Part shown: positions 88 through 59,465 of the stretch, one piece after another
Position numbering within the stretch: position 1 is the first letter of the stretch
Layout of the letters: the number at the start of each line of letters is the position of its first letter
IMG/VR virus record: IMGVR_UViG_3300035171_000016
Coordinates: 1-64,000 of that record
Length of the DNA stretch: 64,000 nt
Direction: 5' to 3' (one strand)
Source: a virus
Notes under the pieces: generated by a model
What the model was told of the DNA's origin: nothing
Seen by the model: the letters and a program-made list of their open reading frames with translations, nothing else
Database searches by the model: none
Program-made: the position numbers and the translations under genes

Positions 88-165
88 TGGTGGGCCGTGC
101 GGGAATTGAACCCGCGGACAATTTCTTATGAGGAAAACGCTATAACCAACGACAGCTTCCGGCCC
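88..165 (-). tRNA. tRNA with CAT anticodon (Met or Ile2)
   Basis: Reverse complement GGGCCGG...TTTC-CTCATAA-GAAA...GCGGGTTCAATTCCCGC-ACGGCCC-ACCA; cloverleaf with encoded CCA. Confidence 0.9.
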
Positions 166-48200: not shown

Positions 48201-48440
48201 GTTATACTAGTTTCTATTTTATTTTTATTTAATTTGTCCCATTGTTTTAATGCGTAATATATTCTTTTAGTCGCGCTTCCAATTCTTTCTTTAGAAATAT
48301 CTCCGTGTGCATGAATTGTGCTTCTTAGTGCCCCGACAATAGCTTTTTCTAAACTTCCGCGTTTGTTTGTATTAAAATTAAAATTGTTCATTTATTAATA
48401 AAAAATAATAGATAAATATTAAAATGTCAAGAAATTAATT

Positions 48441-48691
48441 GAAACGCAGCCATAATCGCCGTTCTGTTTTATCTCTACATTTATCTCACTTTTCAGTGGC
48501 TAATCTTTATGATTAGCTGCTCCAACCTTTCCTTTACATCGGCCAGCACTAGCCTTTGGAACTTTAGGATTACTGCTAATTTGTGGTATTAATGAACGGG
48601 TGCAAAAGCAAGTACCGTTCTCCCAACATCTGCTATGCAGAGGCGAATTTCCTCAAATCATTTCTGACTTGCGTAGAGTCGCTTACGTTTC
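48441..48691 (-). ncRNA. rnpB: RNase P RNA (compact, about 250 nt)
   Basis: P1 GAAACGT/GCGTTTC; P2 CTCTAC/GTAGAG; P3 hairpin; CR-I GAGGAAATTCGCC; GGAGCA; P15 and P18 (GAAA) hairpins; AGATAAATG; CR-V ACAGAACGGCGATTAT with compensatory P4 TCGCC/GGCGA. Confidence 0.88.
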
Positions 48692-49126
48692 AAAATTTAT
48701 TTTTTCTATAGTAGCGTCTGGATAAATAATTATAATTTTTTTCTTCATTTTCACAGCATACCTTTTGGTAGACCATGTTCCTGACCTAAGTTGTTCAATT
48801 TTTTCTTTAGGACAAACAATTAATAATTCAGATTCGTTAACAATATCTTTATTTCTATCTAAATACGGTTTTGACGGCAAAATTGTTTTAGCTTTACAAA
48901 AGGCTCGTTTAACCTCATTAATTGGTGGATGAATAATAATTTTTCCTAAAAATTTATTCTTATTTTGAATAAAATAAAAAACAGATAAATTATGAGCATC
49001 ATAATCAGCCCCTAAACAATCTCCATGATGAAATTCTCTACAGTCTAACGTAAACAAAAAAATAAAAAATATATTCTTTTGTTCCTGAGTCATTCCTGCC
49101 TGTGTTCCAGTAAATCCTATAACCAT
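48683..49126 (-). CDS. SLOG/DprA-like nucleotide-binding protein
   Basis: IGFTGT, HHGDCLGAD, YL.RN..IV, RSGTWST. Confidence 0.6.
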   Translation of the reverse strand: MVIGFTGTQAGMTQEQKNIFFIFLFTLDCREFHHGDCLGADYDAHNLSVFYFIQNKNKFLGKIIIHPPINEVKRAFCKAKTILPSKPYLDRNKDIVNESELLIVCPKEKIEQLRSGTWSTKRYAVKMKKKIIIIYPDATIEKINFET

Positions 49127-49560
49127 ATAATTTATAATTTCCAATTATCTTGATTATCCTCAAGTCTAGAATTAAACCATCCATAAAAACCAGAAGGAAA
49201 AGAGGCAAATATAATAGACATAAAAATACAAAATAATACTCTAATAGGCCACAATGCTACCCATCCAACCCACCAAGTTATAGTTTTTTTAGTCATATAA
49301 ATATGATAATATTGTTATTTTAAAAAGTCAAGATATATAAAAACAAAAAATCCATCAGAAACTAATCTGATGGATTTGATTTATTAAAAAAATTTATGAC
49401 AATTGTTTTATTACATTTGCCGCAAGATATTGTATCTGGAATAAATCCGGTAGTAGCCCATTTTTGAAAATGGCCGCATTTACATTTTAATTTAAATTGA
49501 GGAACTTGGCCGTATACACCGACCTTGCGACTTCTAATTCTTATTGCGTTTTTCATAAAA

Positions 49561-49635
49561 TGGAGGGAATGGCTGGACTTTAACCAGATTATCTTCTTTA
49601 CGAAAGAAGTGCATCAACATAAATGCTTCAAACCC
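49561..49635 (-). tRNA. tRNA-Thr(CGT), mismatched acceptor stem
   Basis: CTTCT-TTCGTAA-AGAAG; CCA end. Confidence 0.75.
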
Positions 49636-49639
49636 GTAA

Positions 49640-49714
49640 TGGAGGGAAAGCCGGAACTTGCATCCGGTTGACAATATTACCAATATTGCGTTTTACTATA
49701 TAAACCACAATCCC
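49640..49714 (-). tRNA. tRNA-Thr(GGT)
   Basis: CAATA-TTGGTAA-TATTG; CCA end. Confidence 0.78.
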
Positions 49715-49945
49715 ATTTAAGCTATCCAGACATCAATCTATAATTACATCCGTATTTTTCTTTAAAAACTTCGTTTTCTTTTTTACCATGAACTTTTGGC
49801 CAGCCTTGTTCTTCCCATATAATACAATACTCGCAAATACCATGAATAATAATCAAATCACGCCCGCATTCTGGACACTGATTTTTTAGATAATATTTGC
49901 GTCCAAAAGTAAAATCTTTCATATATTTAATTATGTTAGGTAACA

Positions 49946-50025
49946 TGGCGAAGTTGGCGAGAGTCGAACTCGCATAATTTCCAATTATGCACTTACTGTT
50001 TAGGAAACAGAGCCATTACAACTTC
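49946..50025 (-). tRNA. tRNA-Arg(CCT), lacking a D arm, long variable arm
   Basis: GAAGTTG/CAACTTC; CTGT-TTCCTAA-ACAG; GCGAG-TTCGACT-CTCGC; GCCA. Confidence 0.7.
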
Positions 50026-50054
50026 AAAATTAATAATAATTAAAATAACTTCCT

Positions 50055-50336
50055 TTACCATAAATGAGAAAAATCAATCTCTCTGGTTCCAACTTGAATG
50101 CCTATGCTCCCATTTAGAGTCGAAAGATGCGTGGCCGTTAGAAAAGAAAAGAAAAGAAAAGAAAAGAAAAGAAAAGAAAAGAAAAGAAATGAACTATGAT
50201 TAGGACATTCAAAATAGAATAGGTCATTCCCACTTCTTTCTCCAGTTAAGGGGTCGAACTTGATTTCCACAGAATACTCTTTTATAATAAGAGGGCTTCT
50301 GCATTTCTCACAAAAAACATCAGATTTAGTTTTCAT
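50055..50336 (-). CDS. Zn-ribbon-like hypothetical protein containing a pentanucleotide SSR
   Basis: CEKC...CPNH then FLFFS repeats. Confidence 0.5.
   Translation of the reverse strand: MKTKSDVFCEKCRSPLIIKEYSVEIKFDPLTGERSGNDLFYFECPNHSSFLFFSFLFFSFLFFSFLTATHLSTLNGSIGIQVGTREIDFSHLW
50141..50189. repeat. (GAAAA)9+GAAA simple sequence repeat
   Basis: Perfect tandem pentamer read directly. Confidence 0.95.
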
Positions 50337-50352
50337 ATTTTGTTTTATAAAA

Positions 50353-50444
50353 TGGCGGATACAGAAGGGGATGCTCCCTCACTGGCTGTTAAACCAGAAC
50401 ACTTTAGCAAAGTGCCGCGCCAAGCTGATATGCGCCTTGTATCC
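50353..50444 (-). tRNA. tRNA-Ser(GCT)
   Basis: GCACT-TTGCTAA-AGTGT; long variable arm; G73. Confidence 0.85.
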
Positions 50445-50448
50445 AAAA

Positions 50449-50533
50449 TGGTAGCCACGGGGAGATTCGGACTCCCAAACCCATCCGGTTTAAGCGGATA
50501 TGCTGTTCCAGTTCGCAATGAGGGCACGCGGCC
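50449..50533 (-). tRNA. tRNA-Leu(TAA), atypical
   Basis: ATCCG-CTTAAAC-CGGAT; short variable loop; extended D region. Confidence 0.8.
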
Positions 50534-50803
50534 ATTAAATTAACAAAATAAATACCTATAATATACTACCATCAAAACAAAATACAGAACTAATCCGGTA
50601 ACATATAATATTAGTTTAATTAAATCTTTAGAACTTATATTTTGTTCATAAAAATTATTTTCTTTTTCTGGTGGATATTTTGACCAATAATCTCCATCTG
50701 TTTTATACCATCCATCAAGAATGGCGCGATTACGATGTTTTTCTATCCAAGGTTCTTTCATATAAAAAGTATAATACTTTTATGCTTTAAAGTCAATACA
50801 AAT

Positions 50804-50878
50804 TGGTGCGCCTAGATGGTAACAATCCATCTTCTTTCGGGTAAGGGCCGATTGCTTCATCATTAAAGCTTTAAGCGC
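50804..50878 (-). tRNA. tRNA-Lys(CTT)
   Basis: TCGG-CCCTTAC-CCGA (C33); CCA end. Confidence 0.75.
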
Positions 50879-50882
50879 AAAA

Positions 50883-50961
50883 TGGTAGGCGATGCAAGGT
50901 GGGAACTTGCGGCATTTTCTTTGTAATAGAAATAGTCTTAACCCGTCTGACGTAATCGCCC
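50883..50961 (-). tRNA. tRNA-Val(TAC)
   Basis: TTTCT-ATTACAA-AGAAA. Confidence 0.82.
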
Positions 50962-50968
50962 ATAAAAT

Positions 50969-51047
50969 TGGTACTTCTACTATGTTACCAGCATAGATAA
51001 TTAGATTCAGAGTCTAATATAATTAAGGTATTTATATTATAGAAGTA
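50969..51047 (-). tRNA. tRNA-Gln(CTG), very AU-rich, divergent T loop
   Basis: TTAGA-CTCTGAA-TCTAA. Confidence 0.72.
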
Positions 51048-51052
51048 TGAAA

Positions 51053-51130
51053 TGGAGGACACGGGGAATTGGCTGCTCCCATAATGCTCATTACAAATAA
51101 GCTACTTTAAGCCATTTAAGCTACGAGTCC
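51053..51130 (-). tRNA. tRNA-Thr(TGT)
   Basis: GCTTA-TTTGTAA-TGAGC. Confidence 0.78.
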
Positions 51131-51660
51131 ATTAAAAATTATATTCTCTTTCGCTAATTAAAATTCCGTCTCTATAAACTTTGAACCAATCATAGGGCTG
51201 GCTTAATACAAAATTTTCACATTCAATAAAAGTATCTCTATACTCTTCTATTAAATCTAATCCTCGAATTTTGAGTTTAATTAAATATCGTTTCATAAAC
51301 ATCCACTATAATATTCTTCCCACATACCCTTCCAATATTTATCATTTTCTTCTTGGCATACTGGACATAAGATTGCAAAATTACTTTTATCTTCAACGTA
51401 ATTAGTATTTTGGCGACGTTTTATCGCACCTAACTTATTACAACAATCGCATCTAAGTTTTCTTTTCATTTAAATTAAATTTTGAATTAGGATTAGTATA
51501 ACACCATTCACATTGGACTTGAATTTGTATTTGTTCTCCATATTCATTATGAGTAGTTAAGTGTCCTACATACCATCCAACATTATCACAGTGAGGACAG
51601 TCTTGCCCCTCCTTATTACAATGCGAGCCATTTACAAATGTTGTTGGCTCAAACATAAAT

Positions 51661-51737
51661 TGGTCGCTAATCTTGGAATTAAACCAAGTAACTTGTCTTT
51701 ATGAGAGACAAAGCTCAATCAGTTGCGTTTATTAGCG
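51661..51737 (-). tRNA. tRNA-Met(CAT)
   Basis: TGTCT-CTCATAA-AGACA; CGCTAAT/ATTAGCG. Confidence 0.8.
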
Positions 51738-52167
51738 TTTATTAGCGTTTTTTAACTTCGTTTACTTTTACTTTGTAAATTTTAAATTTATTATTAGGTA
51801 ATTTAATCTTAAATGTAAATCCCTTTCCGTATGGTAGATATTTCCCATTAAAATTAATTTCTTTTATTACCCTATATTTTCTATTATAAGAACGATTTAG
51901 CTCTGCTTGTAATCCACAAAGAACTTTATCTCCGAGGGTCAAAGATATTAAATCTGGAATATATTCATTATCAAATTTATTCATAATATAATTCGGTTAT
52001 AAAATAGTTAATGATGGCAACAGCTTCCCACCATAGTAAACATAGAGAAAATAGCAATCCATGATAAGTTAATAGATATATCTTTTAAAATCTTTTTGAT
52101 TTCGTTAAATTGTTTATCGTTCATGTATTGATATTAATATAAAAAATATAAGAAGTCAATATTAAAA

Positions 52168-52243
52168 TGGCCCGGTTTATCCGAGTCGAACGGATTTCTC
52201 CTCCTCTTCAGGGAAGATACATGACCCCACATTAGCAAACCGG
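52168..52243 (-). tRNA. tRNA-Phe(GAA)
   Basis: CTTCC-CTGAAGA-GGAGG; ATCCG-TTCGACT-CGGAT. Confidence 0.82.
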
Positions 52244-52247
52244 AAAC

Positions 52248-52323
52248 TGGCGCGGGTTTCGCTTGAATTGAAATGTATCAACTCAACCAAGTTCCTTTTG
52301 TCTAACTTGGAATAGGAGCCCGC
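52248..52323 (-). ncRNA. tRNA-sized three-way-junction RNA ending in CCA
   Basis: GCGGG/CCCGC-GCCA closing two hairpins (CCAAGTT/AACTTGG and TTGAGTTGA/TCAATTCAA). Confidence 0.6.
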
Positions 52324-52328
52324 ATAAA

Positions 52329-52405
52329 TGGTACAGTCGGTAGGAGTTGCACCCACATAATTCTCCTTAGAACGGAGTTCCCTAATCTATTCGAGGCACG
52401 GCTGC
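52329..52405 (-). tRNA. tRNA-Arg(TCT)
   Basis: CTCC-GTTCTAA-GGAG. Confidence 0.8.
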
Positions 52406-52412
52406 ATTAAAA

Positions 52413-52490
52413 TGGACGACCTATCTAGTCGGGAGCTAGAAAATAGACTTTCAAAGAGTCCTGTGTTTAACCCACTTACACTATAGGTCG
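52413..52490 (-). tRNA. tRNA-Gln(TTG)
   Basis: GGACT-CTTTGAA-AGTCT. Confidence 0.8.
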
Positions 52491-52889
52491 AGCTTTGTGT
52501 GGACAGGTTCCGCCGTTAATTTGCCTACCACAATTACAATTAAAGCATAAAATTCGATAACCGGATGGAAAATTATTTCTAATGATATTAATTAATATAT
52601 TTCTAGAGCCGTTAAATTTTTTTCTTTCTTTGTTTCCGTTATTATTAATATGGTCAACCGTAAGAAATTGATAAGTATCTTCCCCGCAGCATTCACATTT
52701 ATTGCCATAGTGTTCTATTACAGTTTTTCTTATTTTGTTGCAATATCTTTTTGAATTTTCTTTGTAATTGGGGTCTGATTTTGAGCGACATTTCCAGCAT
52801 ACAGAGCGAAATAATGGCTCTCCATTTTCCTTATAATTTGCTATTTCCGCATCTTTTTCTTTACATATTTTACATTTTGGTCTATTCAT
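52476..52889 (-). CDS. HNH endonuclease inserted in the tRNA array
   Basis: CECCGE....LTVDHINNNG...LCFNCN; the stop overlaps the 5' end of tRNA-Gln. Confidence 0.78.
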   Translation of the reverse strand: MNRPKCKICKEKDAEIANYKENGEPLFRSVCWKCRSKSDPNYKENSKRYCNKIRKTVIEHYGNKCECCGEDTYQFLTVDHINNNGNKERKKFNGSRNILINIIRNNFPSGYRILCFNCNCGRQINGGTCPHKARPIV

Positions 52890-52956
52890 AATGGTATTTA
52901 CACTAAATCCATACCACTTTATAAAATATTAAAAAATGATTGTATATATCTATTAT

Positions 52957-53286
52957 TTACACCTTTAATAATGGAAATTTCTTAAAAATATCAGGCCAAT
53001 CTACCCTAGGGCAAAAGACTAATGCAATTTCTTGATTATCTAGGCCGGATTCGGTAACAATAATATACTCACTGCCATTATCATTCTCGAAATTCTTTAA
53101 ATATTCAAATTCATCATCTGATACCTCTACCACAACCTTCCTAAATGAATTATTAATCCATTCTTGATAAGATGCTCTGGCCGCGAACTTTAAATGCGCC
53201 ATAAGCACCCCATGAGCCGCCCCAAGGACTTTATGGCTTGGTATTGACTGTTTAATACAGATATACATTTTTGAGTAACTATTCAT
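52957..53286 (-). CDS. peptidyl-tRNA hydrolase, Pth2-like
   Basis: KMYICIK...AAHG...W....RKVVVEV...IALVFCPR...LL; start corrected to avoid tRNA-Glu. Confidence 0.7.
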   Translation of the reverse strand: MNSYSKMYICIKQSIPSHKVLGAAHGVLMAHLKFAARASYQEWINNSFRKVVVEVSDDEFEYLKNFENDNGSEYIIVTESGLDNQEIALVFCPRVDWPDIFKKFPLLKV

Positions 53287-53305
53287 AATTATATTGTTTA
53301 GAAAT

Positions 53306-53384
53306 TGGTATTCGTGTGGAGACTCGCACTCCATAGATATTCTGGGTGAAAACCAGACCGCTCGACGACTTTGCGCTCACGAAC
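53306..53384 (-). tRNA. tRNA-Glu(TTC)
   Basis: TCTGG-TTTTCAC-CCAGA. Confidence 0.82.
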
Positions 53385-53394
53385 ATTAAATTAT

Positions 53395-53682
53395 TTATTG
53401 TAATAAATGCTTATATGAATTTGTCATATCTTTTAAAATACTATTTAATTCATAATTTGTAATACTATTAAAATCTAAATTTTGTGTTTTTATTTCATAT
53501 AACCTTCCACTTGCATATCCTAATTCGGTGGCAGAAATTATTGCCTCAAAATACGTTTTTCTTTCTGCTTTAAGGGCGGCGGATAAATCATAATTATCTT
53601 TATCTCTATCTCTATCTCTATCTTCTCCACAGCCAACGGTTAATATTAAAGTAGTTAAGGCTATTATTAAGTTTAGTTTCAT
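53395..53682 (-). CDS. putative lipoprotein
   Basis: MKLNLIIALTTLILTVGC lipobox. Confidence 0.6.
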   Translation of the reverse strand: MKLNLIIALTTLILTVGCGEDRDRDRDKDNYDLSAALKAERKTYFEAIISATELGYASGRLYEIKTQNLDFNSITNYELNSILKDMTNSYKHLLQ

Positions 53683-54560
53683 AGTTTTTTATTTTATTTT
53701 TTAGAAGTTTTAATATTGTATTTTTTAACTACTTGTGTTGTTTTGTAATTTATACTACAATCTTTTATATAGTTTTCAATCCATAATTCGGCCTCTACTA
53801 AAGAAATCTTAGACGCCACGCATTTACCTATATGATTAATAGATGGTTCTGAAAAATTTTTCCATATAAAGAAATCTCTAAATTGAGGAACATAATAATT
53901 ACCATCTTTGATTATTCGTAATTTCATAGTTTTTTAATTTCATCTATTACCGTTCCGTATATTTTATATACTTTTTTACCATTTTGAGAAATTGATTCTA
54001 ATTCTCGGTTTTCTTTAAGTAATTTTAATATCTTAAATTTCATTGCATCTTGACCGTCAGAAAAACCATCGCGCCAAGATTCTTCTATGTCTTGTTTATG
54101 AATATCCATATTTAAAGTTTATTGATTTTTTTTATTACCGTTTTTAGTTGTGGATAGTCAAACTTCCATTTTTCACAAAAATATTTTAAAGATTCATAAT
54201 TTTTATTTCTTAAATCATAAAAAGGAGAATTAACGCTATTACCTTTATGCTGTTCATACTGGCTATCCGCCTTCTGATATGCAGACATTAAAGCATTACA
54301 TTCTTTTTTATTTAAATTCATATTTATTTAAATTCATATTTATAATTTAATTCCATCAAAATCAACAGAATTCAATTCAAACTCTTCTGGATTAGATTTA
54401 CATTCTTTCGCCTTTTCAAAGGCTAGTTTTTCTAAATCTTCTATAGTTAATTCAACTCTGCAAGTATCGCAGCCAGTCCAGTTTTTTCGCTTCATCCATA
54501 CTGTAGTTTTAATTGTCATAGTTTTATGATAATATAAAAAATTATAAAAGTCAATAAAAA

Positions 54561-54636
54561 TGGTAGCCTATGTTGGCTCTGCCCCAACCACCTTTCCCTT
54601 ATCAAGAGATTGCTCTGCTAAATGAGCTAATAGGCC
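54561..54636 (-). tRNA. tRNA-Ile(GAT)
   Basis: TCTC-TTGATAA-GGGA. Confidence 0.82.
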
Positions 54637-54643
54637 ATTAAAT

Positions 54644-54717
54644 TGGTATTCCTAAACGGTTATGCTCCGTTTTCTTGGATTTGAGAAACCCACGAGATAC
54701 TATTACTCCATAGGAAC
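54644..54717 (-). tRNA. tRNA-Glu(CTC)
   Basis: TGGGT-TTCTCAA-ATCCA. Confidence 0.8.
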
Positions 54718-54724
54718 ATTAAAT

Positions 54725-54803
54725 TGGTGCGTTCGGAGGCTTGGGATTCCTCGTTCAGTCGCTTAAAAGGCGATGTTTCTTAACCCATTTGAATTACGAA
54801 CGC
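54725..54803 (-). tRNA. tRNA-Lys(TTT)
   Basis: TCGC-CTTTTAA-GCGA. Confidence 0.82.
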
Positions 54804-54881
54804 ATAAAATTAATTATCCGATATTTTTATTCGCCTCGGGGACGCCGAAAGGCAATTACGCTTTCTCGGCAGGGCGAAAAT

Positions 54882-54970
54882 TGGCTGGGGCAACAGGGAT
54901 TAAACCTGTAGGTGAGATTTCTCTCGGAAGTTTAACAAACTTCTGCGTCTATCAATTCCGCCACACCCCA
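54882..54970 (-). tRNA. tRNA-Asn(GTT) with a class II body
   Basis: GAAGT-TTGTTAA-ACTTC; variable arm GAGA-GAAA-TCTC; U1-A72; G73. Confidence 0.82.
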
Positions 54971-55053
54971 ACAAATCGTTTCTCCGCCATCCTACACAGG
55001 ATACTTTATTTTTTCTAAGCAGAAGCGATATTCTGCGCGGGTACTAAATTAAA

Positions 55054-55143
55054 TTGTTGTAAGTGTTCAATACAGTTCAGACCGGAGCAGCGGGAATAAG
55101 ATGCCGCCGCATTCTCTTCACCCTATGACCTAAGTTACAACAA
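55054..55143 (-). ncRNA. unknown structured RNA
   Basis: Closing stem TTGTTGTAA/TTACAACAA; inner GCGGCGG/CCGCTGC; motif GGTCATAGGGTG. Confidence 0.5.
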
Positions 55144-55145
55144 AA

Positions 55146-55220
55146 TGGAGCACTTGGAGAATTTTGAAATCTCGACGTTCACGTTGGAAGCGTGACACTC
55201 TGCCTCTGAGTTACAAGTGC
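55146..55220 (-). tRNA. tRNA-Gly(TCC)
   Basis: TCACG-CTTCCAA-CGTGA; U73. Confidence 0.87.
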
Positions 55221-55227
55221 ATTAAAT

Positions 55228-55318
55228 TGGGTGCAGAAAGTGGAGTTAAACCACACATAGCGAAAGTTAATTCGCCTGCCTTATGAGGGCAGTTAGCGTC
55301 TCGCGGCTTGTTTCTGCA
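55228..55318 (-). tRNA. tRNA(CAT) with long variable arm, possible 8/4 fold
   Basis: CTGCC-CTCATAA-GGCAG; GCGAA/TTCGC variable arm; TGCAGAAA/TTTCTGCA. Confidence 0.75.
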
Positions 55319-55330
55319 ATTCTAATGAAA

Positions 55331-55415
55331 TGGTCGGGATTGGGGCGTTCGCATCCCCACGGATTTCTCACCAGTTCCCAAAACTGGCCCGGAACTACTT
55401 ACGGTCTAAATCCCG
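55331..55415 (-). tRNA. tRNA-Pro(TGG)
   Basis: CGGGATT/AATCCCG; CCAGT-TTTGGGA-ACTGG. Confidence 0.82.
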
Positions 55416-55690
55416 ATAAAATATTACTTTAAAACTTTTTCAAAATGCGGCCATTCATAATCTCCTTCTGGCCAAGGAGTTCTTTCTATTCCTAGATTTT
55501 CATTTAATTTTATCTTTCCGATAAAACAATTAACGTGTTTTGCGGCCTTTCTAGCTTTTGCGATACTATCAAAAATACCAACAAACTCCCATTCTAATTC
55601 TTTATTGATAATATCAGGAACATATCCTACTAAATATAATTGTTTCATAGTTTTATGATAATACTAAAATTTTGCTTTGTCAACTAAAAT

Positions 55691-55768
55691 TGGAAGCCAG
55701 CCGCAGTAACGCTCTGCGTAAACAAGAATTTTGCAGATTCCGGGGTTAATCTTACTCCCTCGCTGGCT
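55691..55768 (-). tRNA. tRNA-Cys(GCA)
   Basis: GGAAT-CTGCAAA-ATTCT; U73. Confidence 0.8.
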
Positions 55769-55943
55769 ATTTAAAGCTTAAATCGTAGAACCAACAAATA
55801 AAGCCAAACCAATTGGAATCCATAATAGATGTCCAACACTGAATGCGGCCAAGACAAAACAAACAATTGCACCGATTTTAAGTAGTATTTTATAATCCAT
55901 ACCTTATTATATACTTTTATCTCAAAAATTACTATTAAGTTTT

Positions 55944-56246
55944 CTACTTACTGTTTTTAAAAAATGCTTTTATAAAACCAAAAATAAAAATAGCCATGAA
56001 CAAAACTATTAACATTTTTAATGGAAAAGCTATAAATATATCAAATATAGAACAGTTACTTCCAAAACCAAAGGTATTCCATAAAAAGCTACCAATATAA
56101 TAAAACGAAACAACAATACCAGAAAATAAACACAATCCAATTATAATTTTTAATGGAGCTATTAATAATTCAGTCCCTCCACTAGATTCATTTATTAGTT
56201 TTATAGCCTTGTCTTGCTGAAACTTATTTTGTGGTACAAATATCAT
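55944..56246 (-). CDS. membrane protein
   Basis: Two hydrophobic segments. Confidence 0.55.
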   Translation of the reverse strand: MIFVPQNKFQQDKAIKLINESSGGTELLIAPLKIIIGLCLFSGIVVSFYYIGSFLWNTFGFGSNCSIFDIFIAFPLKMLIVLFMAIFIFGFIKAFFKNSK

Positions 56247-57119
56247 ATATTATTTTTTAATTTTTAAATTCATAGGAAATGCTGGAACTGAACTTGGCCA
56301 ATTATTCATTATAGAATCGCTAAAAATATTTCTCATACTAAAGCTATCCGGCAAACTTCTGTAACACGTTTGCATATTTTTCATCCATTGGTCAATTTTA
56401 CAATCAAAATAAAAATCAAAATATAATTGAGATTCTTTCATTTAATCTCTCCGGTATAAACAATTTTTCTTTGCTTTTTGTTCTTAGAAAATAACCTATC
56501 CGACATATAATCAAGACTATTTTGTATAGTATTAAAATAAACTTTATATCCATCTTCTGTAAAGAAAGATTGAAAATAAGAATCAATTTTACACTGTGGA
56601 TAAAAATGATTTTCGTCTTGCAATACTCTAATCTTGTATTTTTTCATTTTTGGTTACTCTTACTGATTTTTTTAGCTTTAACAACTCTTACTTGATTATT
56701 TACCATTACTCTACCTACATTTTGGCCATCCATAGATACAGTATAATATCTATTGTCCGGCAAGTCAAGAGCCTTCCTTACTTTTTCATCGGCAGCTAAT
56801 GGATTTAAACAGTATTCTTTAAATAGGTCTGGCGGCATTTGTTTCATATTATCTAGTATCTTGTAATGGAATTATCTCAGTAATTTTAATAGCAACTTTA
56901 TTTTTAATTAATTTATCTGCTATTTTCTTTGTAAAATAAAATTCTACACCAGCCTTTACAAGTCGCCTTCCACTTTCACCTAATAAGCCGGTAAGAAAAA
57001 TAGCTTCGGGGTCAATGATTTTAATCCTAACTGCATCTGGAACATAAGCTAGTTCTTTTAATAACTCTGGAACCACCATGAATTGTAGTTTAATTTTTTT
57101 CATAAGATTTTATTTAAAA

Positions 57120-57214
57120 TGGCGGATAGTGCATCGAATCGAACGCGCACCGGCCTTTCGGCGCGGTCAACTTTTCAAGAGTTGTGGGGCAAACCAATAT
57201 CCCACCTACTATCC
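57120..57214 (-). tRNA. tRNA-Ser(TGA)
   Basis: CAACT-CTTGAAA-AGTTG; long variable arm; G73. Confidence 0.85.
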
Positions 57215-57316
57215 ATAAAATTTATTTAGATTATAATTTCTTAGACAATAGACTAAGTATGTTTTCTTACATCAAAAGACTTTTCAAAGTATTTAGTCTT
57301 TTATAATTTCTAAAAA

Positions 57317-57393
57317 TGGCGGGACTAGCCGGAATCGAACCGAGCTTTCTTACCGTGACAGGGTAAGCGATGAAACCACTCTCTTTTAATCCC
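57317..57393 (-). tRNA. tRNA-Asp(GTC)
   Basis: TTACC-CTGTCAC-GGTAA; G73. Confidence 0.87.
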
Positions 57394-57403
57394 ATAAATT
57401 GAA

Positions 57404-57571
57404 TTACCAATAAACTTTATTACCAATCCGAGTCTTGTCGGTATTGGCAAAGCGTTCTATTAGGCGAGCGCATCCTATTCAATTCTATCGGCAGAATAAA
57501 CTGCTTACAATGATATTGAATTAAGTCCTATATAATATATGAGAACTATTTAATTATGGTGTTATTGGTAA
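57404..57571 (-). ncRNA. unknown multibranched RNA (about 170 nt)
   Basis: 10-bp closing stem TTACCAATAA/TTATTGGTAA with internal hairpins. Confidence 0.5.
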
Positions 57572-57573
57572 AA

Positions 57574-57657
57574 TGGTCGCCCTGACAGGACTTCAACCTG
57601 CAAAACCACCCGTTCTAAGCGGGCAAGCTGTGGCGTTCGCTACAAGGTCACAGGGCG
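57574..57657 (-). tRNA. tRNA-Leu(TAG), atypical
   Basis: GCCCG-CTTAGAA-CGGGT; short variable loop; extended D region. Confidence 0.8.
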
Positions 57658-57661
57658 GAAA

Positions 57662-57746
57662 TGGTCGCATCGCGGAGACTTCAACTCCGAAAACTCTACG
57701 TTTTGAATGTAGTGGCTGTAGCAATTCGCGCTTATGTCACGATGCG
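57662..57746 (-). tRNA. tRNA-Leu(CAA), atypical
   Basis: CTACA-TTCAAAA-CGTAG; short variable loop; extended D region. Confidence 0.78.
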
Positions 57747-57750
57747 GAAA

Positions 57751-57829
57751 TGGTATCCCATAGAAGCTGGCGACTTCTGACCAATCCCTTATAAAGAGAA
57801 CGCTCTTGAGCCATGTGAGCTAATGGGAT
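57751..57829 (-). tRNA. tRNA-Ile(TAT)
   Basis: TCTC-TTTATAA-GGGA. Confidence 0.78.
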
Positions 57830-57834
57830 ATAAA

Positions 57835-57911
57835 TGGTGCATCATAAAAGAGTTAAACTTTTATCTAACTGGTTCGTATCCAGTTGCTTTATTCAATTAA
57901 GCTAATGATGC
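57835..57911 (-). tRNA. tRNA-Arg(ACG)
   Basis: ACTGG-ATACGAA-CCAGT. Confidence 0.82.
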
Positions 57912-58089
57912 GTTAAATTTAATTTATAATAAACCTTTTATTTTTTCTATCAAACTACACTTACATTCTTTCTTGCTCTTTCGGCAATATCTACAAAAAA
58001 ATTCTCGTACATATTCACAGTCGGAACACCAACCGTGGCAACATTTACTGTTTCTTTGTCCTATATCTAATTTATATTTTTTCATTAAA

Positions 58090-58165
58090 TGGTCAGGTGG
58101 CCGGGTGTCGAGCCCGGTTAGCAAGTTTCACACACTTGGAGATTAGCCGTTATCCTACGCACCTG
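58090..58165 (-). tRNA. tRNA-His(GTG), lacking G-1/C73
   Basis: CAAGT-GTGTGAA-ACTTG; A73. Confidence 0.75.
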
Positions 58166-58175
58166 TTAAAATAAC

Positions 58176-58240
58176 AATCGGTATGCTTCCATTACACTAA
58201 GGTTTCGCTCCTATTTGGACTTGAACCAATACCTCCGATT
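58176..58240 (-). ncRNA. circularly permuted mini tRNA-like RNA (T arm, closed acceptor, D arm)
   Basis: AATCGG...TTGG-TTCAAGT-CCAA...AGG-AGCGAAA-CCT...GTGTAATGGAAGCAT...CCGATT. Confidence 0.6.
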
Positions 58241-58244
58241 TAGA

Positions 58245-58333
58245 TGGTGGCGCGGTGAAAGTAACGCTCTTTTTGCTTAACTTCTCAACTATTTTAGCAA
58301 AGGTTTTACAGACCCTCGTTGAGGACACCGGCC
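58245..58333 (-). tRNA. tRNA-Tyr(GTA), lacking a D arm, long variable arm
   Basis: AGGGT-CTGTAAA-ACCTT; A73-CCA. Confidence 0.72.
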
Positions 58334-58334
58334 A

Positions 58335-58556
58335 TTAAATTTTACTTATAAATCTTTTATTAAAATATAAATTATCTTTTTTTAATTTAATAAACTCTTC
58401 AATTTTATTTGCAAGATTAACTAGTTTATCATCTTTAAGATATTTGAAACATCCGTTTTTAATTAAGACTCCTATAATATCTTCTCCTTCTTGTGCTGAT
58501 AGGTTATCAAAAATAAGACCTATTGATATTTGTTCGTTTTTTGTTAGTTGTTTCAT
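58335..58556 (-). CDS. hypothetical protein
   Basis: Start corrected to MKQLTK because the longer ORF runs through tRNA genes. Confidence 0.55.
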   Translation of the reverse strand: MKQLTKNEQISIGLIFDNLSAQEGEDIIGVLIKNGCFKYLKDDKLVNLANKIEEFIKLKKDNLYFNKRFISKI

Positions 58557-58559
58557 AAA

Positions 58560-58637
58560 TGGTGGAGAATTTGGGATTCTAACCCAACTGGATTCGCATT
58601 GCAAGTGCGACGACCACAACAAGCAGTCCCATTCCCC
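58560..58637 (-). tRNA. tRNA-Ala(TGC)
   Basis: TCGCA-CTTGCAA-TGCGA; G3-U70. Confidence 0.88.
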
Positions 58638-58750
58638 GTAAATTAAAAACCGCAATAGAAAGATTTTAGTTATACTCATAAATGAGTCGCGGTTAAATTT
58701 TGCTCCGAGGGCCGCGTGAATACGTCTATTCAGCCTAGGGAGCGGTAAGA

Positions 58751-58827
58751 TGGCACAACGAATGGGAGTCGAACCCATCTATTACCGTTTTGGAGGCGGC
58801 GGCTTCACTCAACTTAGCTATCGTTGT
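58751..58827 (-). tRNA. tRNA-Trp(CCA)
   Basis: Loop CTCCAAA; ATGGG-TTCGACT-CCCAT; G73. Confidence 0.85.
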
Positions 58828-58834
58828 ATTAAAT

Positions 58835-58908
58835 TGGAGCATCATAACGGTATTGAACCATTTTATCTAACTTGGCAAGCTAGGGCATTACATTTATGCT
58901 AATGATGC
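58835..58908 (-). tRNA. tRNA-Gly(GCC)
   Basis: CTAGC-TTGCCAA-GTTAG; U73. Confidence 0.85.
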
Positions 58909-58911
58909 GAT

Positions 58912-59062
58912 AACTGCTTTCGCAGCCGCCATATTATCTCCGCGATAAGCTCGGAGTCCGGGTTCTGCTTTCGCATAACACCCTATGACCGATTAGTGAT
59001 TTTTTATACCATATCACCGGATTTTACTTACCGGAGGCTCACTGTTTGAGTTCTAAGCCTTA
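58912..59062 (-). ncRNA. structured RNA preceding the first tRNA of the array
   Basis: Two TGC-GAAA-GCA GNRA hairpins; CCGG/CCGG, GTGAT/ATCAC and CTCCG/CGGAG stems; motif GGTCATAGGGTG. Confidence 0.55.
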
Positions 59063-59078
59063 AATTCTTACTTTCTAT

Positions 59079-59107
59079 ACTCTAATACCTAAAATCTGTT
59101 TTGTCAA
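59079..59107 (-). promoter_or_regulatory. sigma70-like promoter immediately downstream of the terminator
   Basis: TTGACA-N17-TAGAGT. Confidence 0.6.
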
Positions 59108-59109
59108 AT

Positions 59110-59140
59110 AAAAAACCACCGAATCTTTTTTCGGTGGCTT
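59110..59140 (-). terminator. intrinsic terminator (attenuator)
   Basis: AAGCCACCGAA-AAAAGA-TTCGGTGG-TTTTTT. Confidence 0.88.
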
Positions 59141-59165
59141 CCAAATTTTCTTTTATTTCTCTATT

Positions 59166-59173
59166 AAGCCACC
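59166..59173 (-). promoter_or_regulatory. antiterminator strand
   Basis: GGTGGCTT, 1 nt after the leader stop, is perfectly complementary to the terminator 5' arm AAGCCACC (59133-59140). Confidence 0.78.
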
Positions 59174-59174
59174 A

Positions 59175-59282
59175 TTACACTTTTTTATCTCCCGTCCAAT
59201 TGCGTTGAATATAATGCGACGGAGAAGTACCTTTTATGAGGCATTCTCTAAACATCGCTAAACTGGTCATATCAACTGTCAT
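59175..59282 (-). CDS. leader peptide containing all 20 amino acids
   Basis: MTVDMTSLAMFRECLIKGTSPSHYIQRNWTGDKKV*; 30 distinct codons in 35; below the ORF-track size cutoff. Confidence 0.8.
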   Translation of the reverse strand: MTVDMTSLAMFRECLIKGTSPSHYIQRNWTGDKKV

Positions 59283-59465
59283 ATTTATACTATAGTACCA
59301 TTTTACACAAAAGTAAAGTAAAATGTGAAATTTTATTTTAATTTCTTTTTAATTTCTTTATTTATAGCATCTTTTAGTGCCTCTAATATTATTCCATCTA
59401 TTTTGTCAATATATCTTTTTTCTTAGATAATCCGTCTAAATATTTTAATTGTTCAATATTTAATT

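What the first reader, a model, noticed from the sequence alone, without database searches (positions are those of the whole stretch)
48441..59282. Self-contained translation-rescue module: tRNAs for all 20 amino acids plus RNase P RNA and peptidyl-tRNA hydrolase
Seen: 33 co-oriented tRNA genes with encoded CCA (Thr3, Leu3, Arg3, Ser2, Lys2, Gln2, Glu2, Ile2, Gly2, CAT x2, and one each of Val, Phe, Asn, Pro, Cys, Asp, His, Tyr, Ala, Trp). A Pth2-like gene lies inside the array and rnpB at its distal end. Inference: the phage brings a full decoding set, its own 5'-processing ribozyme and an enzyme to recycle dropped-off peptidyl-tRNA, all downstream of a stalling sensor.
Basis: partly seen in the sequence, partly recalled or inferred. 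Interest (0 to 1): 0.8.

Follow-up and report, generated by a model that had tools for sequence, protein, structure and literature searches.

The report
Phage tRNA island with own RNase P
A 148-kb uncultured phage carries 33 tRNA genes covering all 20 amino acids, a peptidyl-tRNA hydrolase and a miniature copy of the RNase P ribozyme that trims new tRNAs; I found no published report of a virus-encoded RNase P RNA.

Summary
On the minus strand, 58908-49561 carries 33 tRNA or tRNA-like genes. All end in N-CCA and together they cover all 20 amino acids. Standard settings find only 12, because most have altered elbows and several have non-cloverleaf cores. A 103-aa protein inside the array has the Pth2 fold (pLDDT 92; top 13 PDB matches are all Pth2).

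The RNA at 48693-48439 is a true, slimmed-down RNase P RNA homologue. It has CR-I, CR-IV and CR-V, a P4 helix with the bulged U, and helices P1-P3, P5, P15 and P18. It belongs to a family of at least 16 phage members. Across 15 of them, 96.9% of cells pair and 52 of 56 pairs show compensatory changes. The family almost always sits beside co-oriented tRNA arrays. Close relatives keep the order array, then Pth2, then RNase P RNA.

The locus is not one operon: a strong terminator and a promoter separate the RNase P RNA from the tRNAs. It is not self-contained either, since it lacks RnpA and a CCA-adding enzyme. The upstream "stalling sensor" is real and conserved in architecture. No expression data exist.

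This scan has already flagged mini RNase P RNAs and rewired tRNAs in other phages.

The parts
59289..59317 (-). Promoter-like site TTTACT-N17-TATAGT in front of the mini-ORF. The ATG lies about 7 nt after the -10 box, so the mRNA may be leaderless.
59175..59282 (-).
   Evidence: P about 0.001 from phage composition; the only one of 157 small ORFs in the genome. Homologous 36-38-aa ORFs with 19 amino-acid types lie at the same place in L035 and L039.
59110..59173 (-). Antiterminator/terminator pair. GGUGGCUU (59173-59166) can pair with AAGCCACC (59140-59133). That stretch overlaps the terminator stem CCACCGAA/UUCGGUGG (59137-59116), which is followed by U6.
   Evidence: Same architecture with different sequence (GGGCGAC/GUCGCCC) in L035 and L039.
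59079..59107 (-). Promoter-like site TTGACA-N17-TAGAGT for the array, downstream of the terminator. Conserved in L035 and L039.
58909..59063 (-). Conserved structured leader RNA abutting the first tRNA. Function unknown.
   Evidence: E 4e-17 and 2e-15 to L039 and L035, with a covarying hairpin. No Rfam match.
58835..58908 (-). tRNA-Gly(GCC)
   Evidence: ARAGORN default; Rfam 51.7 bits
58751..58827 (-). tRNA-Trp(CCA)
   Evidence: ARAGORN default; Rfam 46.7 bits
58560..58637 (-). tRNA-Ala(TGC)
   Evidence: Rfam 36.8 bits; relaxed ARAGORN
58245..58334 (-). Rewired tRNA-like gene with anticodon GTA (Tyr). It has an 8-bp acceptor stem with a bulge, no D hairpin, and a 6-bp long-range helix around the anticodon arm.
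   Evidence: covariation in L035 and L039 (CUCAAC/GUUGAG vs CCUGUU/AACAGG vs CUCGUU/AACGAG), with an invariant CUGUAAA loop.
58090..58165 (-). tRNA-His(GTG)
   Evidence: ARAGORN default; R1 18 bits
57835..57911 (-). tRNA-Arg(ACG)
   Evidence: ARAGORN default; Rfam 57.7 bits
57751..57829 (-). tRNA-Ile(TAT)
   Evidence: R1 30.6 bits, E 9e-7; 7/7 acceptor + CCA
57662..57746 (-). tRNA-Leu(CAA), irregular core; resembles the neighbouring Leu-TAG.
   Evidence: 7/7 acceptor + ACCA and a 5-bp T arm; R1 8.4 bits
57574..57657 (-). tRNA-Leu(TAG). An extra 4-bp helix GACC/GGUU spans the D hairpin and the anticodon arm.
   Evidence: orthologues 89% (L037) and 82% (L035) identical
57317..57393 (-). tRNA-Asp(GTC)
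   Evidence: ARAGORN default; Rfam 33.5 bits
57120..57214 (-). tRNA-Ser(TGA), class II
   Evidence: Relaxed ARAGORN; Rfam tRNA-Sec model 28.6 bits; 7/7 acceptor + CCA
55691..55768 (-). tRNA-Cys(GCA)
   Evidence: orthologue in L035
55331..55415 (-). tRNA-Pro(TGG), 85 nt
55228..55318 (-). tRNA with anticodon CAT, 91 nt, with a long extra arm
   Evidence: orthologue in L039
55146..55220 (-). tRNA-Gly(TCC)
   Evidence: ARAGORN default; Rfam 54.4 bits
54882..54970 (-). tRNA-Asn(GTT), 89 nt, with an extra arm
   Evidence: ARAGORN default; Rfam 40.7 bits; 84% identical full-length orthologue in L037
54725..54803 (-). tRNA-Lys(TTT)
   Evidence: R1 25.1 bits; orthologues
54644..54717 (-). tRNA-Glu(CTC)
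   Evidence: ARAGORN default; Rfam 43.4 bits
54561..54636 (-). tRNA-Ile(GAT)
   Evidence: Rfam 37.5 bits
53306..53384 (-). tRNA-Glu(TTC)
   Evidence: 7/7 acceptor + CCA cloverleaf; R1 7.3 bits
52957..53268 (-). Pth2-fold protein, 103 aa (divergent peptidyl-tRNA hydrolase 2 family)
52413..52490 (-). tRNA-Gln(TTG)
   Evidence: ARAGORN default; R1 25.4 bits
52329..52405 (-). tRNA-Arg(TCT)
   Evidence: Rfam 27.2 bits; relaxed ARAGORN
52168..52243 (-). tRNA-Phe(GAA)
   Evidence: ARAGORN default; R1 17.4 bits
51661..51737 (-). tRNA with anticodon CAT (second copy)
   Evidence: 7/7 acceptor + ACCA cloverleaf; R1 10.3 bits
51053..51130 (-). tRNA-Thr(TGT)
   Evidence: Rfam 31.3 bits; R1 28.5 bits
50969..51046 (-). 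tRNA-Gln(CTG)
   Evidence: 7/7 acceptor, all stems 5/5; R1 7.4 bits
50883..50961 (-). tRNA-Val(TAC)
   Evidence: Rfam 43.3 bits
50804..50878 (-). tRNA-Lys(CTT)
   Evidence: Rfam 33.6 bits
50449..50533 (-). tRNA-Leu(TAA). An extra helix GCCC/GGGU spans the D region and the anticodon arm.
   Evidence: R1 12.4 bits
50353..50444 (-). tRNA-Ser(GCT), class II
   Evidence: ARAGORN default
49946..50025 (-). tRNA-like gene with anticodon CCT (Arg). Normal acceptor and T arms, irregular core, 8-bp extra hairpin.
   Evidence: Rfam 30.9 bits; orthologue in L039
49640..49714 (-). tRNA-Thr(GGT)
   Evidence: ARAGORN default; Rfam 42.7 bits
49561..49635 (-). tRNA-Thr(CGT)
   Evidence: Rfam 34.5 bits
49348..49377 (-). 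Intrinsic terminator (12-bp stem plus U run) after the last tRNA block
49303..49331 (-). Promoter-like site TTGACT-N17-TATCAT starting the unit that ends in the RNase P RNA
48683..49144 (-). 153-aa ORF of unknown family. Its stop codon lies inside P1 of the RNase P RNA.
   Evidence: 45%-identical homologues lie 1.5-2.6 kb upstream of the RNase P RNA in L035 and L037.
48439..48693 (-). Compact RNase P RNA homologue, about 251-255 nt. It has P1-P5, a small P7/P10-like remnant of the specificity domain, P15 with an inner hairpin, an invariant GGU, and a GAAA-capped P18.
48402..48430 (-). Promoter-like site TTGACA-N17-TATTTT directly after the RNA's 3' end

Best explanation
This is a phage tRNA supply-and-maintenance island, not a single operon.

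The tRNAs. 33 co-oriented tRNA genes cover all 20 amino acids. They are packed 4-12 nt apart within blocks, and small ORFs lie between the blocks. They are transcribed from several sigma-70-type promoters as multi-gene precursors that must be cut apart. The tRNAs are selected, working adaptors even though they look degenerate. Their D-loop/T-loop elbow keeps its tertiary pairing with changed bases, and several have a rewired core that relatives preserve.

The two helper genes. The 103-aa Pth2-fold protein inside the array most likely releases peptides (or N-blocked amino acids) from tRNAs that dropped off ribosomes, which recycles them. About 870 nt beyond the last tRNA, in its own transcription unit, lies a roughly 250-nt RNase P RNA. 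It keeps the whole catalytic core and only a stub of the specificity domain. It most likely joins the host RnpA protein, since none is phage-encoded, and cleaves the 5' leaders of the phage pre-tRNAs.

Upstream control. An attenuator-like mini-ORF containing all 20 amino acids may raise read-through into the array when any charged tRNA is scarce.

Shown here: the genes, the folds, the family, the covariation and the synteny.
Inferred: catalysis, the protein partner, hydrolase activity, regulation, and the purpose (supply after host shut-off and/or escape from tRNA-targeting defences).

My odds: RNase P RNA homologue 0.95; active in pre-tRNA 5' processing 0.65; most tRNAs functional 0.85; Pth2 an active hydrolase 0.6; attenuator works as described 0.5.
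For: tRNAs:
- 33 genes, all ending in CCA and all on one strand, with clean controls.
- Orthologues at 70-89% identity in relatives, including the odd long forms.
- Covariation in the rewired Tyr gene.
- D-loop/T-loop co-variation: U56 goes with a GA D-loop in 5 of 5, A56 with GU in 2 of 2, and GGU with ACC.

Pth2:
- The profile hits only Pth2 structures.
- pLDDT is 92 and the top 13 fold matches are all Pth2.
- 56 homologues exist, and those examined sit in tRNA arrays.

RNase P RNA:
- Full-length Rfam matches: window E 0.0024 in a 401-nt search, L002 E 4e-10, L063 E 8e-11.
- CR-I, CR-IV and CR-V are present.
- P4 is 7/7 with an invariant bulged U in 15 of 15 members.
- Across 15 sequences, 96.9% of cells pair, against 34-44% when partners are slid. 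52 of 56 pairs have double changes. No shuffle of 500 reached the observed values.
- 14 of 15 relatives have co-oriented tRNAs in the same locus and none has a tRNA on the other strand. Five have a tRNA within 20 nt.
- The arrangement array, Pth2, RNase P RNA recurs in L035 and L037.

Transcription units.
Attenuator.
Against: - There are no expression, processing or charging data, and no RNA run holds the DNA.
- The window's RNA scores far below Rfam's cut-off (18.3 vs 84 bits) and lacks most of the specificity domain, so activity on its own is uncertain.
- No phage RnpA was found, so function needs a compatible host protein, and the host is unknown.
- The invariant GGU does not track encoded CCA across the family, so its role is open.
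- Pth2 is below Pfam's cut-off. The residues aligned to the archaeal catalytic Lys and Asp appear as His/Lys and Glu (alignment plus my recollection of the catalytic residues).
- The array has its own promoter after the attenuator's terminator, so the sensor cannot be the only control.
- The consensus promoter scan as a whole is not enriched over shuffles (63 vs 56).
- The covariation alignments were fitted to my structure by the model, and P4 was a selection filter for some members.
Confidence: 0.6

Rival explanations
1. One reading: one self-contained operon in which the stalling sensor gates the tRNAs, Pth2 and rnpB together.
For: All parts are co-oriented. The attenuator architecture is conserved. 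The order array, Pth2, RNase P RNA is kept in L035 and L037. No convincing terminator lies between 59.07 kb and 49.38 kb.
Against: A conserved promoter sits after the attenuator's terminator. TTGAC-N17 promoter-like sites recur inside the array. A 12-bp terminator plus a promoter lies between the last tRNA and rnpB. No RnpA or CCA-adding enzyme is encoded.
Confidence: 0.12
2. The RNase P-like RNA is not a working tRNA-processing enzyme. Instead it is a decoy that ties up host RnpA or RNase P substrates, or a regulator derived from RNase P RNA.
For: Most of the specificity domain is gone. No phage protein subunit was found. In this clade the RNA is separated from the tRNAs by protein genes.
Against: The residues conserved across 15 diverged members are the catalytic-core ones: CR-I, CR-IV, CR-V and the bulged U of P4. 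A protein sponge would not need these. In many phages the RNA lies 0-20 nt from tRNAs inside arrays. From general knowledge, natural and engineered RNase P RNAs lacking the S-domain (Pyrobaculum type T, mini-M1) still cleave pre-tRNA.
Confidence: 0.15
3. Many of the divergent tRNA-like genes are decaying copies, and only the dozen or so that standard tools find are functional.
For: ARAGORN default finds 12 of 33. Many T-loops lack UUC, and 18 of 28 D-loops lack GG. Five genes have irregular cores.
Against: All 33 keep an intact acceptor stem plus CCA. D-loop and T-loop changes are compensatory. Odd forms are conserved with covariation in relatives. Each anticodon occurs once and the set is near-complete. 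Decay would not preserve that.
Confidence: 0.1
4. The Pth2-fold protein is mainly a counter-defence enzyme. It would deacylate N-acetylated aminoacyl-tRNAs made by GNAT-type toxins, rather than rescuing dropped-off peptidyl-tRNA.
For: This is a divergent Pth2 subfamily below Pfam's cut-off, with substituted active-site positions. From general knowledge, bacterial Pth reverses TacT-type tRNA acetylation. The gene lies in a tRNA island, where a defence-evasion role is plausible (PMC10264068).
Against: Nothing here distinguishes the two substrates, and the chemistry is the same. PTH2 in jumbo phages has been read as ribosome rescue (PMC7824862).
Confidence: 0.2

Closest known systems
Bacterial class A RNase P RNA (E. 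coli M1 RNA / rnpB, Rfam RF00010) and archaeal RNase P RNA (RF00373), including the minimal type T of Pyrobaculum
   Same: It has the same strand order, P1-P2-P3-CR-I/P4-P5 ... CR-IV-P2'-J2/4-CR-V/P4'-P1'. P4 carries a bulged U. P18 is GNRA-capped. There is a GGU near P15. Rfam matches are full-length.
   Different: It is about 250 nt rather than 290-400. The specificity domain is reduced to a 3-bp helix plus one hairpin. P15 carries a small inner hairpin in place of P16/P17. It scores far below Rfam gathering cut-offs. It is encoded by phages next to tRNA arrays, with no cognate protein gene.
Large phage tRNA arrays (T4, T5, mycobacteriophage cluster C, huge phages; from general knowledge and PMC10264068)
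   Same: The tRNAs are clustered and co-oriented, interleaved with small ORFs and HNH endonuclease genes. The proposed roles are codon supply or escape from tRNA-targeting defences.
   Different: The set here covers all 20 amino acids. Every gene encodes CCA. The elbow sequences are systematically altered with compensation. Several genes are non-cloverleaf. The array travels with Pth2, an RNase P RNA and an attenuator-like leader.
PTH2 of jumbo phages (Iyer et al. 2021, PMC7824862) and archaeal/eukaryotic Pth2 (PDB 1rlk, 3erj, 2zv3, 1xty, 1q7s)
   Same: Same fold (TM 0.71-0.78). It is a phage-borne, archaeo-eukaryotic-type enzyme, which that paper proposes recycles peptidyl-tRNA.
   Different: It is shorter (103 aa), below Pfam's cut-off, and sits inside the tRNA array of a 148-kb phage. 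The putative catalytic positions are substituted.
Leader-peptide transcription attenuators (trpL, hisL, pheL type)
   Same: A short ORF is followed by a segment that can pair with the 5' strand of an intrinsic terminator. Ribosome position would choose between the two folds.
   Different: The peptide is not enriched in one amino acid. It contains all 20 (19 in relatives). It precedes a tRNA array rather than a biosynthetic operon. A second promoter follows the terminator.
Rewired, non-cloverleaf phage tRNAs noted earlier in this scan (Arg-UCU and GUA types)
   Same: The D hairpin is absent and a helix spans the anticodon arm. The acceptor stem, T arm and CCA are intact, and the fold is conserved with covariation.
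   Different: Here they occur for Tyr-GTA and probably Arg-CCT, and in a milder form for three Leu genes, inside a complete 33-gene set.

Membership tests
RNase P RNA (Rfam clan CL00002) | P4 helix formed by CR-I and CR-V, with a bulged U | tested here: met
   7/7 pairs plus a bulged U in the window and in all 15 aligned members, with covariation at 5 positions. P4 was a selection filter for some members.
RNase P RNA (Rfam clan CL00002) | Conserved regions CR-I (GAGGAAR), CR-IV/J18-2 (AGAUAAAUG-like) and CR-V (ACARAA...G...UA) | tested here: met
   Read directly in the sequence. Invariant across the family.
RNase P RNA (Rfam clan CL00002) | P1, P2, P3, P5 and P15 helices in canonical order, supported by covariation | tested here: met
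   96.9% of cells paired; 52 of 56 pairs with double changes; slid controls 34-44%.
RNase P RNA (Rfam clan CL00002) | Score at or above the curated Rfam gathering cut-off | tested here: not met
   Window 18.3 bits vs 84. Relatives score 46.2 (arch) and 45.3 (bact_a), both below cut-off though E is about 1e-10.
RNase P RNA (Rfam clan CL00002) | Full specificity domain (P7-P12 with CR-II and CR-III) | tested here: not met
   Only a 3-bp P7-like helix and one hairpin, about 55 nt, lie between the P5 strands.
RNase P RNA (Rfam clan CL00002) | Cleaves pre-tRNA 5' leaders | not testable with these tools
   Needs a biochemical assay or complementation.
Pth2 peptidyl-tRNA hydrolase (PF01981) | Pth2 alpha/beta fold | tested here: met
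   pLDDT 92.1. The top 13 Foldseek hits are all Pth2 (TM 0.71-0.78); nearly every other hit has TM under 0.3.
Pth2 peptidyl-tRNA hydrolase (PF01981) | Pfam gathering score | tested here: not met
   18.1-18.7 bits vs 23. 13 of 26 family members hit at E<=0.01, best 1.5e-4. The profile against PDB finds only Pth2, E 2e-5.
Pth2 peptidyl-tRNA hydrolase (PF01981) | Catalytic Lys and Asp (S. solfataricus K18/D86, recalled from memory) | tested here: inconclusive
   In the alignment the GK motif aligns with the family's SHK (H12 nearly invariant, K13 next). By my own motif comparison, not a tool alignment, the DAG motif region corresponds to an invariant TESG (E73). No residue-level structural alignment was available.
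Canonical bacterial tRNA (RF00005) | 7-bp acceptor stem, discriminator base, and an anticodon stem-loop with a 7-nt loop | tested here: met
   26 of 33 acceptor stems are 7/7 and 6 are 5-6/7. Tyr has 8 bp with a bulge. All 33 end in N-CCA.
Canonical bacterial tRNA (RF00005) | Rfam gathering score of 29 bits | tested here: inconclusive
   15 of 33 reached 29 bits or more in the runs made. Speed filters hid others that a later run scored above cut-off.
Canonical bacterial tRNA (RF00005) | Invariant elbow: G18-G19 in the D-loop and T54-Psi55-C56 in the T-loop | tested here: not met
   Only 10 of 28 parsed genes have UC at positions 55 and 56, and 10 of 28 have GG in the D-loop. The changes look compensatory.
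Canonical bacterial tRNA (RF00005) | Cloverleaf with a local D hairpin | tested here: not met
   Not met for Tyr-GTA or Arg-CCT. The three Leu genes have an added helix. Met for about 28 genes.
Leader-peptide transcription attenuator | Short ORF, intrinsic terminator and a mutually exclusive antiterminator, conserved in relatives | tested here: met
   This is in silico only; regulation was not tested.

The most novel reading that the evidence does not exclude
The phage runs a regulated, largely host-independent tRNA biogenesis system with three linked parts. First, a leader peptide containing every amino acid senses a shortage of any charged tRNA and raises read-through into the array. Second, the array holds a complete set of tRNAs whose elbows and cores have been rewritten, possibly to escape host nucleases or host-specific recognition. 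Third, these tRNAs are matured by a phage-borne mini RNase P ribozyme that no longer reads the canonical elbow. The tRNA rewriting and the loss of the ribozyme's specificity domain would then be two sides of one adaptation.
Probability: 0.25. Interest if true: 0.92.

Novelty: new variant of a known kind. Interest (0 to 1): 0.78.

Why it matters
RNase P RNA is regarded as a universal cellular ribozyme. In the searchable literature I found no report of a virus-encoded one, and two jumbo-phage reviews do not mention it. Here it is one member of a conserved family of at least 16 phage sequences that annotation pipelines miss.

The family offers natural, compact RNase P RNAs (208-290 nt) for studying the minimal ribozyme. 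It also bears on how phages mature large tRNA arrays.

The same locus holds several other testable items:
- a complete tRNA set with compensated non-canonical elbows;
- tRNAs with non-cloverleaf cores;
- a leader ORF containing all amino acids, with attenuator architecture.

Each bears on phage independence from, or evasion of, host translation control and tRNA-targeting immunity.

Tried and rejected
- Megablast of the 10.8-kb region against 50,697 phage records found nothing. By DnaE-type polymerase the phage is at most 29% identical to cultured phages, so host and family stay unknown.
- No RNA holder is listed for this DNA. The holders are rhizosphere metagenome DNA contigs only.
- First pattern scans: 25 of 29 hits were chance matches with P4 2-5/7. 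L023 passed P4 but had no P1 and failed the model.
- RNAalifold on the raw MAFFT alignment recovered only P4 and fragments, because the variable helices were misaligned. A model-guided alignment replaced it.
One unfiltered model search failed internally.
- Idea: the invariant GGU pairs with encoded CCA. CCA is encoded on nearly all tRNAs in the window's clade but on few in L024, L002, L106, L073, L057 and L101. There is no correlation, so I dropped this as evidence.
- Idea: the adjacent 153-aa ORF is the RNase P protein. It has no Pfam or PHROG family. Its homologues in relatives lie 1.5-2.6 kb from the RNA, not adjacent. Not supported.
- ARAGORN at low threshold called a 'permuted tmRNA' at 58106-58652. 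It spans three tRNAs and an ORF and its tag is implausible, so I treated it as spurious.
- The records behind L003, L024 and L002 lack this Pth2 family, so Pth2 and the RNase P RNA are not obligatorily linked.
- The tRNA model R1 lacks the anticodon stem because of an alignment artefact, so its scores are conservative.

Full report
WHAT THE WINDOW IS. The window is the first 64 kb of a 147,760-bp IMG/VR virus record, 31% G+C and estimated 95% complete. It encodes a large terminase, a DnaE-type polymerase, ribonucleotide reductase and a DnaB-like helicase. It has no near relative among 50,697 phage records. Megablast found nothing, and the polymerase is at most 29% identical to any of them. The DNA occurs in rhizosphere metagenome runs. 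Everything discussed here lies on the minus strand.

THE tRNAs. Default ARAGORN finds 12 tRNAs in the interval, and Rfam at gathering finds 6. I combined five sources:
- permissive Rfam runs;
- relaxed ARAGORN;
- a scan of my own anchored on a 7-bp acceptor stem followed by N-CCA;
- hand inspection of the remaining gaps;
- an unfiltered covariance model built only from the canonical tRNAs of two other phages.
All 33 end in discriminator + CCA.

The controls are clean. My scan gave one weak hit on the opposite strand and one in a 13.5-kb control stretch. In the unfiltered model run over 20 kb, every hit with E<0.1 was a minus-strand hit inside the array. I grade 22 genes as well supported, 9 as moderately supported, and 2 (Tyr-GTA, Leu-CAA) as irregular. 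With U34 reading whole family boxes, the set reads every sense codon except CGG, and it covers all 20 amino acids. One further Met-CAT tRNA lies outside the array at 88-165.

WHY STANDARD TOOLS MISS THEM. Only 10 of 28 parsed cloverleaves keep U55-C56 in the T-loop, and only 10 keep GG in the D-loop. The changes look compensatory:
- T-loops with U56 go with D-loops carrying GA (5 of 5).
- T-loops with A56 go with GU (2 of 2).
- CUGGUAA goes with ACC.
- T-loops containing CCC go with GGG.
This is a hand parse, not a rigorous statistic.

CAT (91 nt), Asn (89 nt) and Pro (85 nt) carry extra arms. The three Leu genes have a 4-bp helix spanning the D hairpin and the anticodon arm.

The Tyr-GTA gene has an 8-bp acceptor stem, no D hairpin, and a 6-bp helix that encloses the anticodon arm. 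L035 and L039 keep that fold with compensatory changes and an invariant CUGUAAA loop. Orthologues of several odd genes are 70-89% identical in relatives. These are therefore maintained genes, not debris. Earlier notes of this scan describe the same rewired class in other phages.

Pth2. The gene as called is 103 aa, at 53268-52957, starting just after tRNA-Glu-TTC. Pfam PTH2 is below its cut-off (18.7 vs 23 bits), and 13 of 26 family members hit it at E<=0.01. A profile of 26 homologues hits six PDB sequences, all archaeal-type Pth2 family (best E 2e-5). The AlphaFold model has pLDDT 92.1. Its top 13 Foldseek matches are all Pth2 (TM 0.71-0.78), with nothing comparable below them.

Homologues in L035, L037 and L039 also sit in tRNA arrays. 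PTH2 in jumbo phages has been described and read as ribosome rescue (PMC7824862). The positions aligned to the catalytic residues are substituted, so activity is inferred rather than shown.

THE RNase P RNA IN THE WINDOW. Rfam's archaeal model matches 48691-48441 end to end but at only 18.3 bits. The sequence shows GAGGAAAUUCGCC (CR-I), AGAUAAAUG (CR-IV) and AACAGAACGGCGAUUA (CR-V). The two P4 strands pair 7/7 around a bulged U.

THE RNase P RNA FAMILY. Pattern scans of IMG/VR, filtered by that P4 rule, found relatives. So did a covariance model built from the window sequence plus my hand-derived structure. Context look-ups through the Pth2 protein found more. In all there are at least 16 distinct members, 208-290 nt long, on contigs up to 390 kb. 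Model E-values run from 1e-65 to 7e-4.

Two members give independent, full-length Rfam matches: L002 to archaeal RNase P (E 4e-10) and L063 to bacterial class A (E 8e-11).

COVARIATION. On 15 sequences, 96.9% of cells pair, against 34-44% when partners are slid by 1-3 columns. 52 of 56 pairs show changes on both sides. There are 254 compensatory cells against 28-55 in the slid controls. No shuffle of 500 reaches the observed values. P4 is 7/7 with an invariant bulged U in all 15, and a GGU after P15 is invariant.

Two caveats apply. The alignment was fitted to my structure, and P4 was a selection filter for part of the set.

WHAT IS KEPT AND WHAT IS LOST. The RNA keeps P1-P5, P15 (with a small inner hairpin) and a GNRA-capped P18. 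Of the specificity domain it keeps only a 3-bp helix and one hairpin. No RnpA gene is present in the phage.

ASSOCIATION WITH tRNA ARRAYS. In 14 of 15 relatives, default ARAGORN finds co-oriented tRNAs in the same locus and none on the other strand. Five have a tRNA within 20 nt. In L073 the RNA lies between two tRNAs with 1-3 nt to spare, inside a 30-gene array.

In the window's own clade the RNA sits at the far end instead. It lies 870 nt past the last tRNA here, and a few kb past the last default-detected tRNA in L035 and L037, 5-7 kb downstream of their Pth2 genes on the same strand.

TRANSCRIPTION LAYOUT (in silico only). TTGAC(A/T)-N17-TAnnnT sites lie at 59107, 55683, 54554, 52159, 50796, 49331 and 48430, each in a gap before a gene block. 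The consensus scan as a whole is not enriched over shuffles (63 vs 56). A 12-bp terminator at 49377-49348, followed by the 49331 promoter, separates the last tRNA from the unit holding a small ORF, a 153-aa ORF and the RNase P RNA. The locus is therefore several transcription units.

THE 'STALLING SENSOR'. Coordinate 59282 is the start of a 35-codon ORF whose peptide contains all 20 amino acids. The chance of this is about 0.001 from phage composition. It is the only one of 157 ORFs of 30-40 codons in the genome to do so, and only 9 of 27,830 windows in real proteins contain all 20.

Directly after the stop codon, GGUGGCUU can pair with AAGCCACC. That stretch overlaps the stem of an intrinsic terminator. 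L035 and L039 have homologous 36-38-codon ORFs with 19 amino-acid types, and the same three-segment layout built from different sequences (GGGCGAC/GUCGCCC).

A ribosome that reaches the stop would mask segment 1 and allow termination. A ribosome stalled at any hungry codon would free segment 1 and allow read-through. All three phages then have a second promoter and a conserved structured leader RNA of about 155 nt that abuts the first tRNA and matches no Rfam family. The sensor can therefore only modulate array expression, not gate it.

HOW IT MOST LIKELY WORKS. See Best explanation. Closely packed tRNA precursors need 5' cleavage. The phage supplies the catalytic RNA, probably using host RnpA. 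Pth2 recycles tRNAs. The purpose may be supply after host shut-off, escape from tRNA-targeting defences (PMC10264068), or both; this is inferred.

It is tempting to link the rewritten elbows to the ribozyme's loss of its specificity domain. However, other family members serve arrays of canonical tRNAs, so the link is not general.

The claim 'self-contained' fails. No RnpA, CCA-adding enzyme, RtcB or 2H phosphoesterase is encoded. The T4 RNA ligase search was uninformative.

KNOWN VERSUS NEW. Large phage tRNA arrays and phage PTH2 are already known. I found no paper describing a phage-encoded RNase P RNA or an all-amino-acid leader attenuator. The library lacks most subscription journals. Earlier agents of this scan reported miniature RNase P RNAs in other phages' tRNA arrays and likewise found no publication. 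My result was derived independently on this DNA and agrees with theirs. What this window adds is the conserved co-occurrence of the array, Pth2, the ribozyme RNA and the attenuator in one phage clade.

Noticed in passing
window 59317-59110 (minus): A 35-codon ORF containing all 20 amino acids is followed by an antiterminator/terminator pair. Homologous ORFs with 19 amino-acid types and the same architecture, built from different sequence, occur in L035:4218-4390 and L039:3818-3995. The ORF has no Shine-Dalgarno sequence, and its ATG lies about 7 nt after the -10 box, so the mRNA may be leaderless.
   Followed up: partly
window 59063-58909 (minus); L039:4141-4235; L035:4515-4614: A conserved structured RNA of about 155 nt lies between the array promoter and the first tRNA. 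It has two invariant blocks and a covarying hairpin, and matches no Rfam family. RNase P cleavage at tRNA-Gly would release it as a free RNA.
   Followed up: partly
window 58244-58166 (minus): A 79-nt segment between Tyr-GTA and His-GTG contains a textbook T arm (UUGG-UUCAAGU-CCAA) but no acceptor pairing or CCA. It is not conserved in L035 or L039. It may be a tRNA remnant, and it is the source of ARAGORN's spurious 'permuted tmRNA' call.
   Followed up: partly
window 49561-58908 (minus): D-loop and T-loop sequences co-vary: U56 with GA, A56 with GU, GGU with ACC, and CCC with GGG. The tertiary elbow pair seems to be kept with non-canonical bases in most of the tRNAs.
   Followed up: partly
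window, 3' side of each tRNA in 49561-58908: Almost every tRNA is followed directly after CCA by (A)UUU(U/A)(A/U). This uniform trailer could be a 3'-processing signal.
   Followed up: no
window about 50192-50140 (minus): A (TTTCT)n pentanucleotide repeat of about 10 units lies inside the 93-codon ORF 50336-50055, which it encodes as FLFFSFLFFS... It could be a slippage-prone tract.
   Followed up: no
L035:10414-10950, L037:5056-5601, L035:13925-14692: Relatives carry a 2H-phosphoesterase (2_5_RNA_ligase2) and a metallophosphatase gene in their tRNA arrays; in L035 and L036 the 2H gene lies directly after Pth2. This hints at tRNA repair. No 2H phosphoesterase (PF13563) was found in the window's genome; the metallophosphatase was not searched for there.
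   Followed up: partly
window 52889-52476 and 48200-47568 (minus): Cys-rich HNH-like ORFs lie inside and just beyond the array. The second has a weak Pfam HNH hit. Many of the small ORFs between tRNA blocks carry CxxC pairs. Homing endonucleases are typical of phage tRNA regions.
   Followed up: no
window 29583-31046 (minus): A nicotinamide phosphoribosyltransferase gene (PHROG 448, E 1e-198), an NAD-salvage auxiliary gene.
   Followed up: no
window 88-165 (minus): A well-scoring tRNA-Met(CAT) lies 49 kb from the array. This makes three CAT-anticodon genes in the genome, possibly initiator, elongator and Ile2.
   Followed up: no
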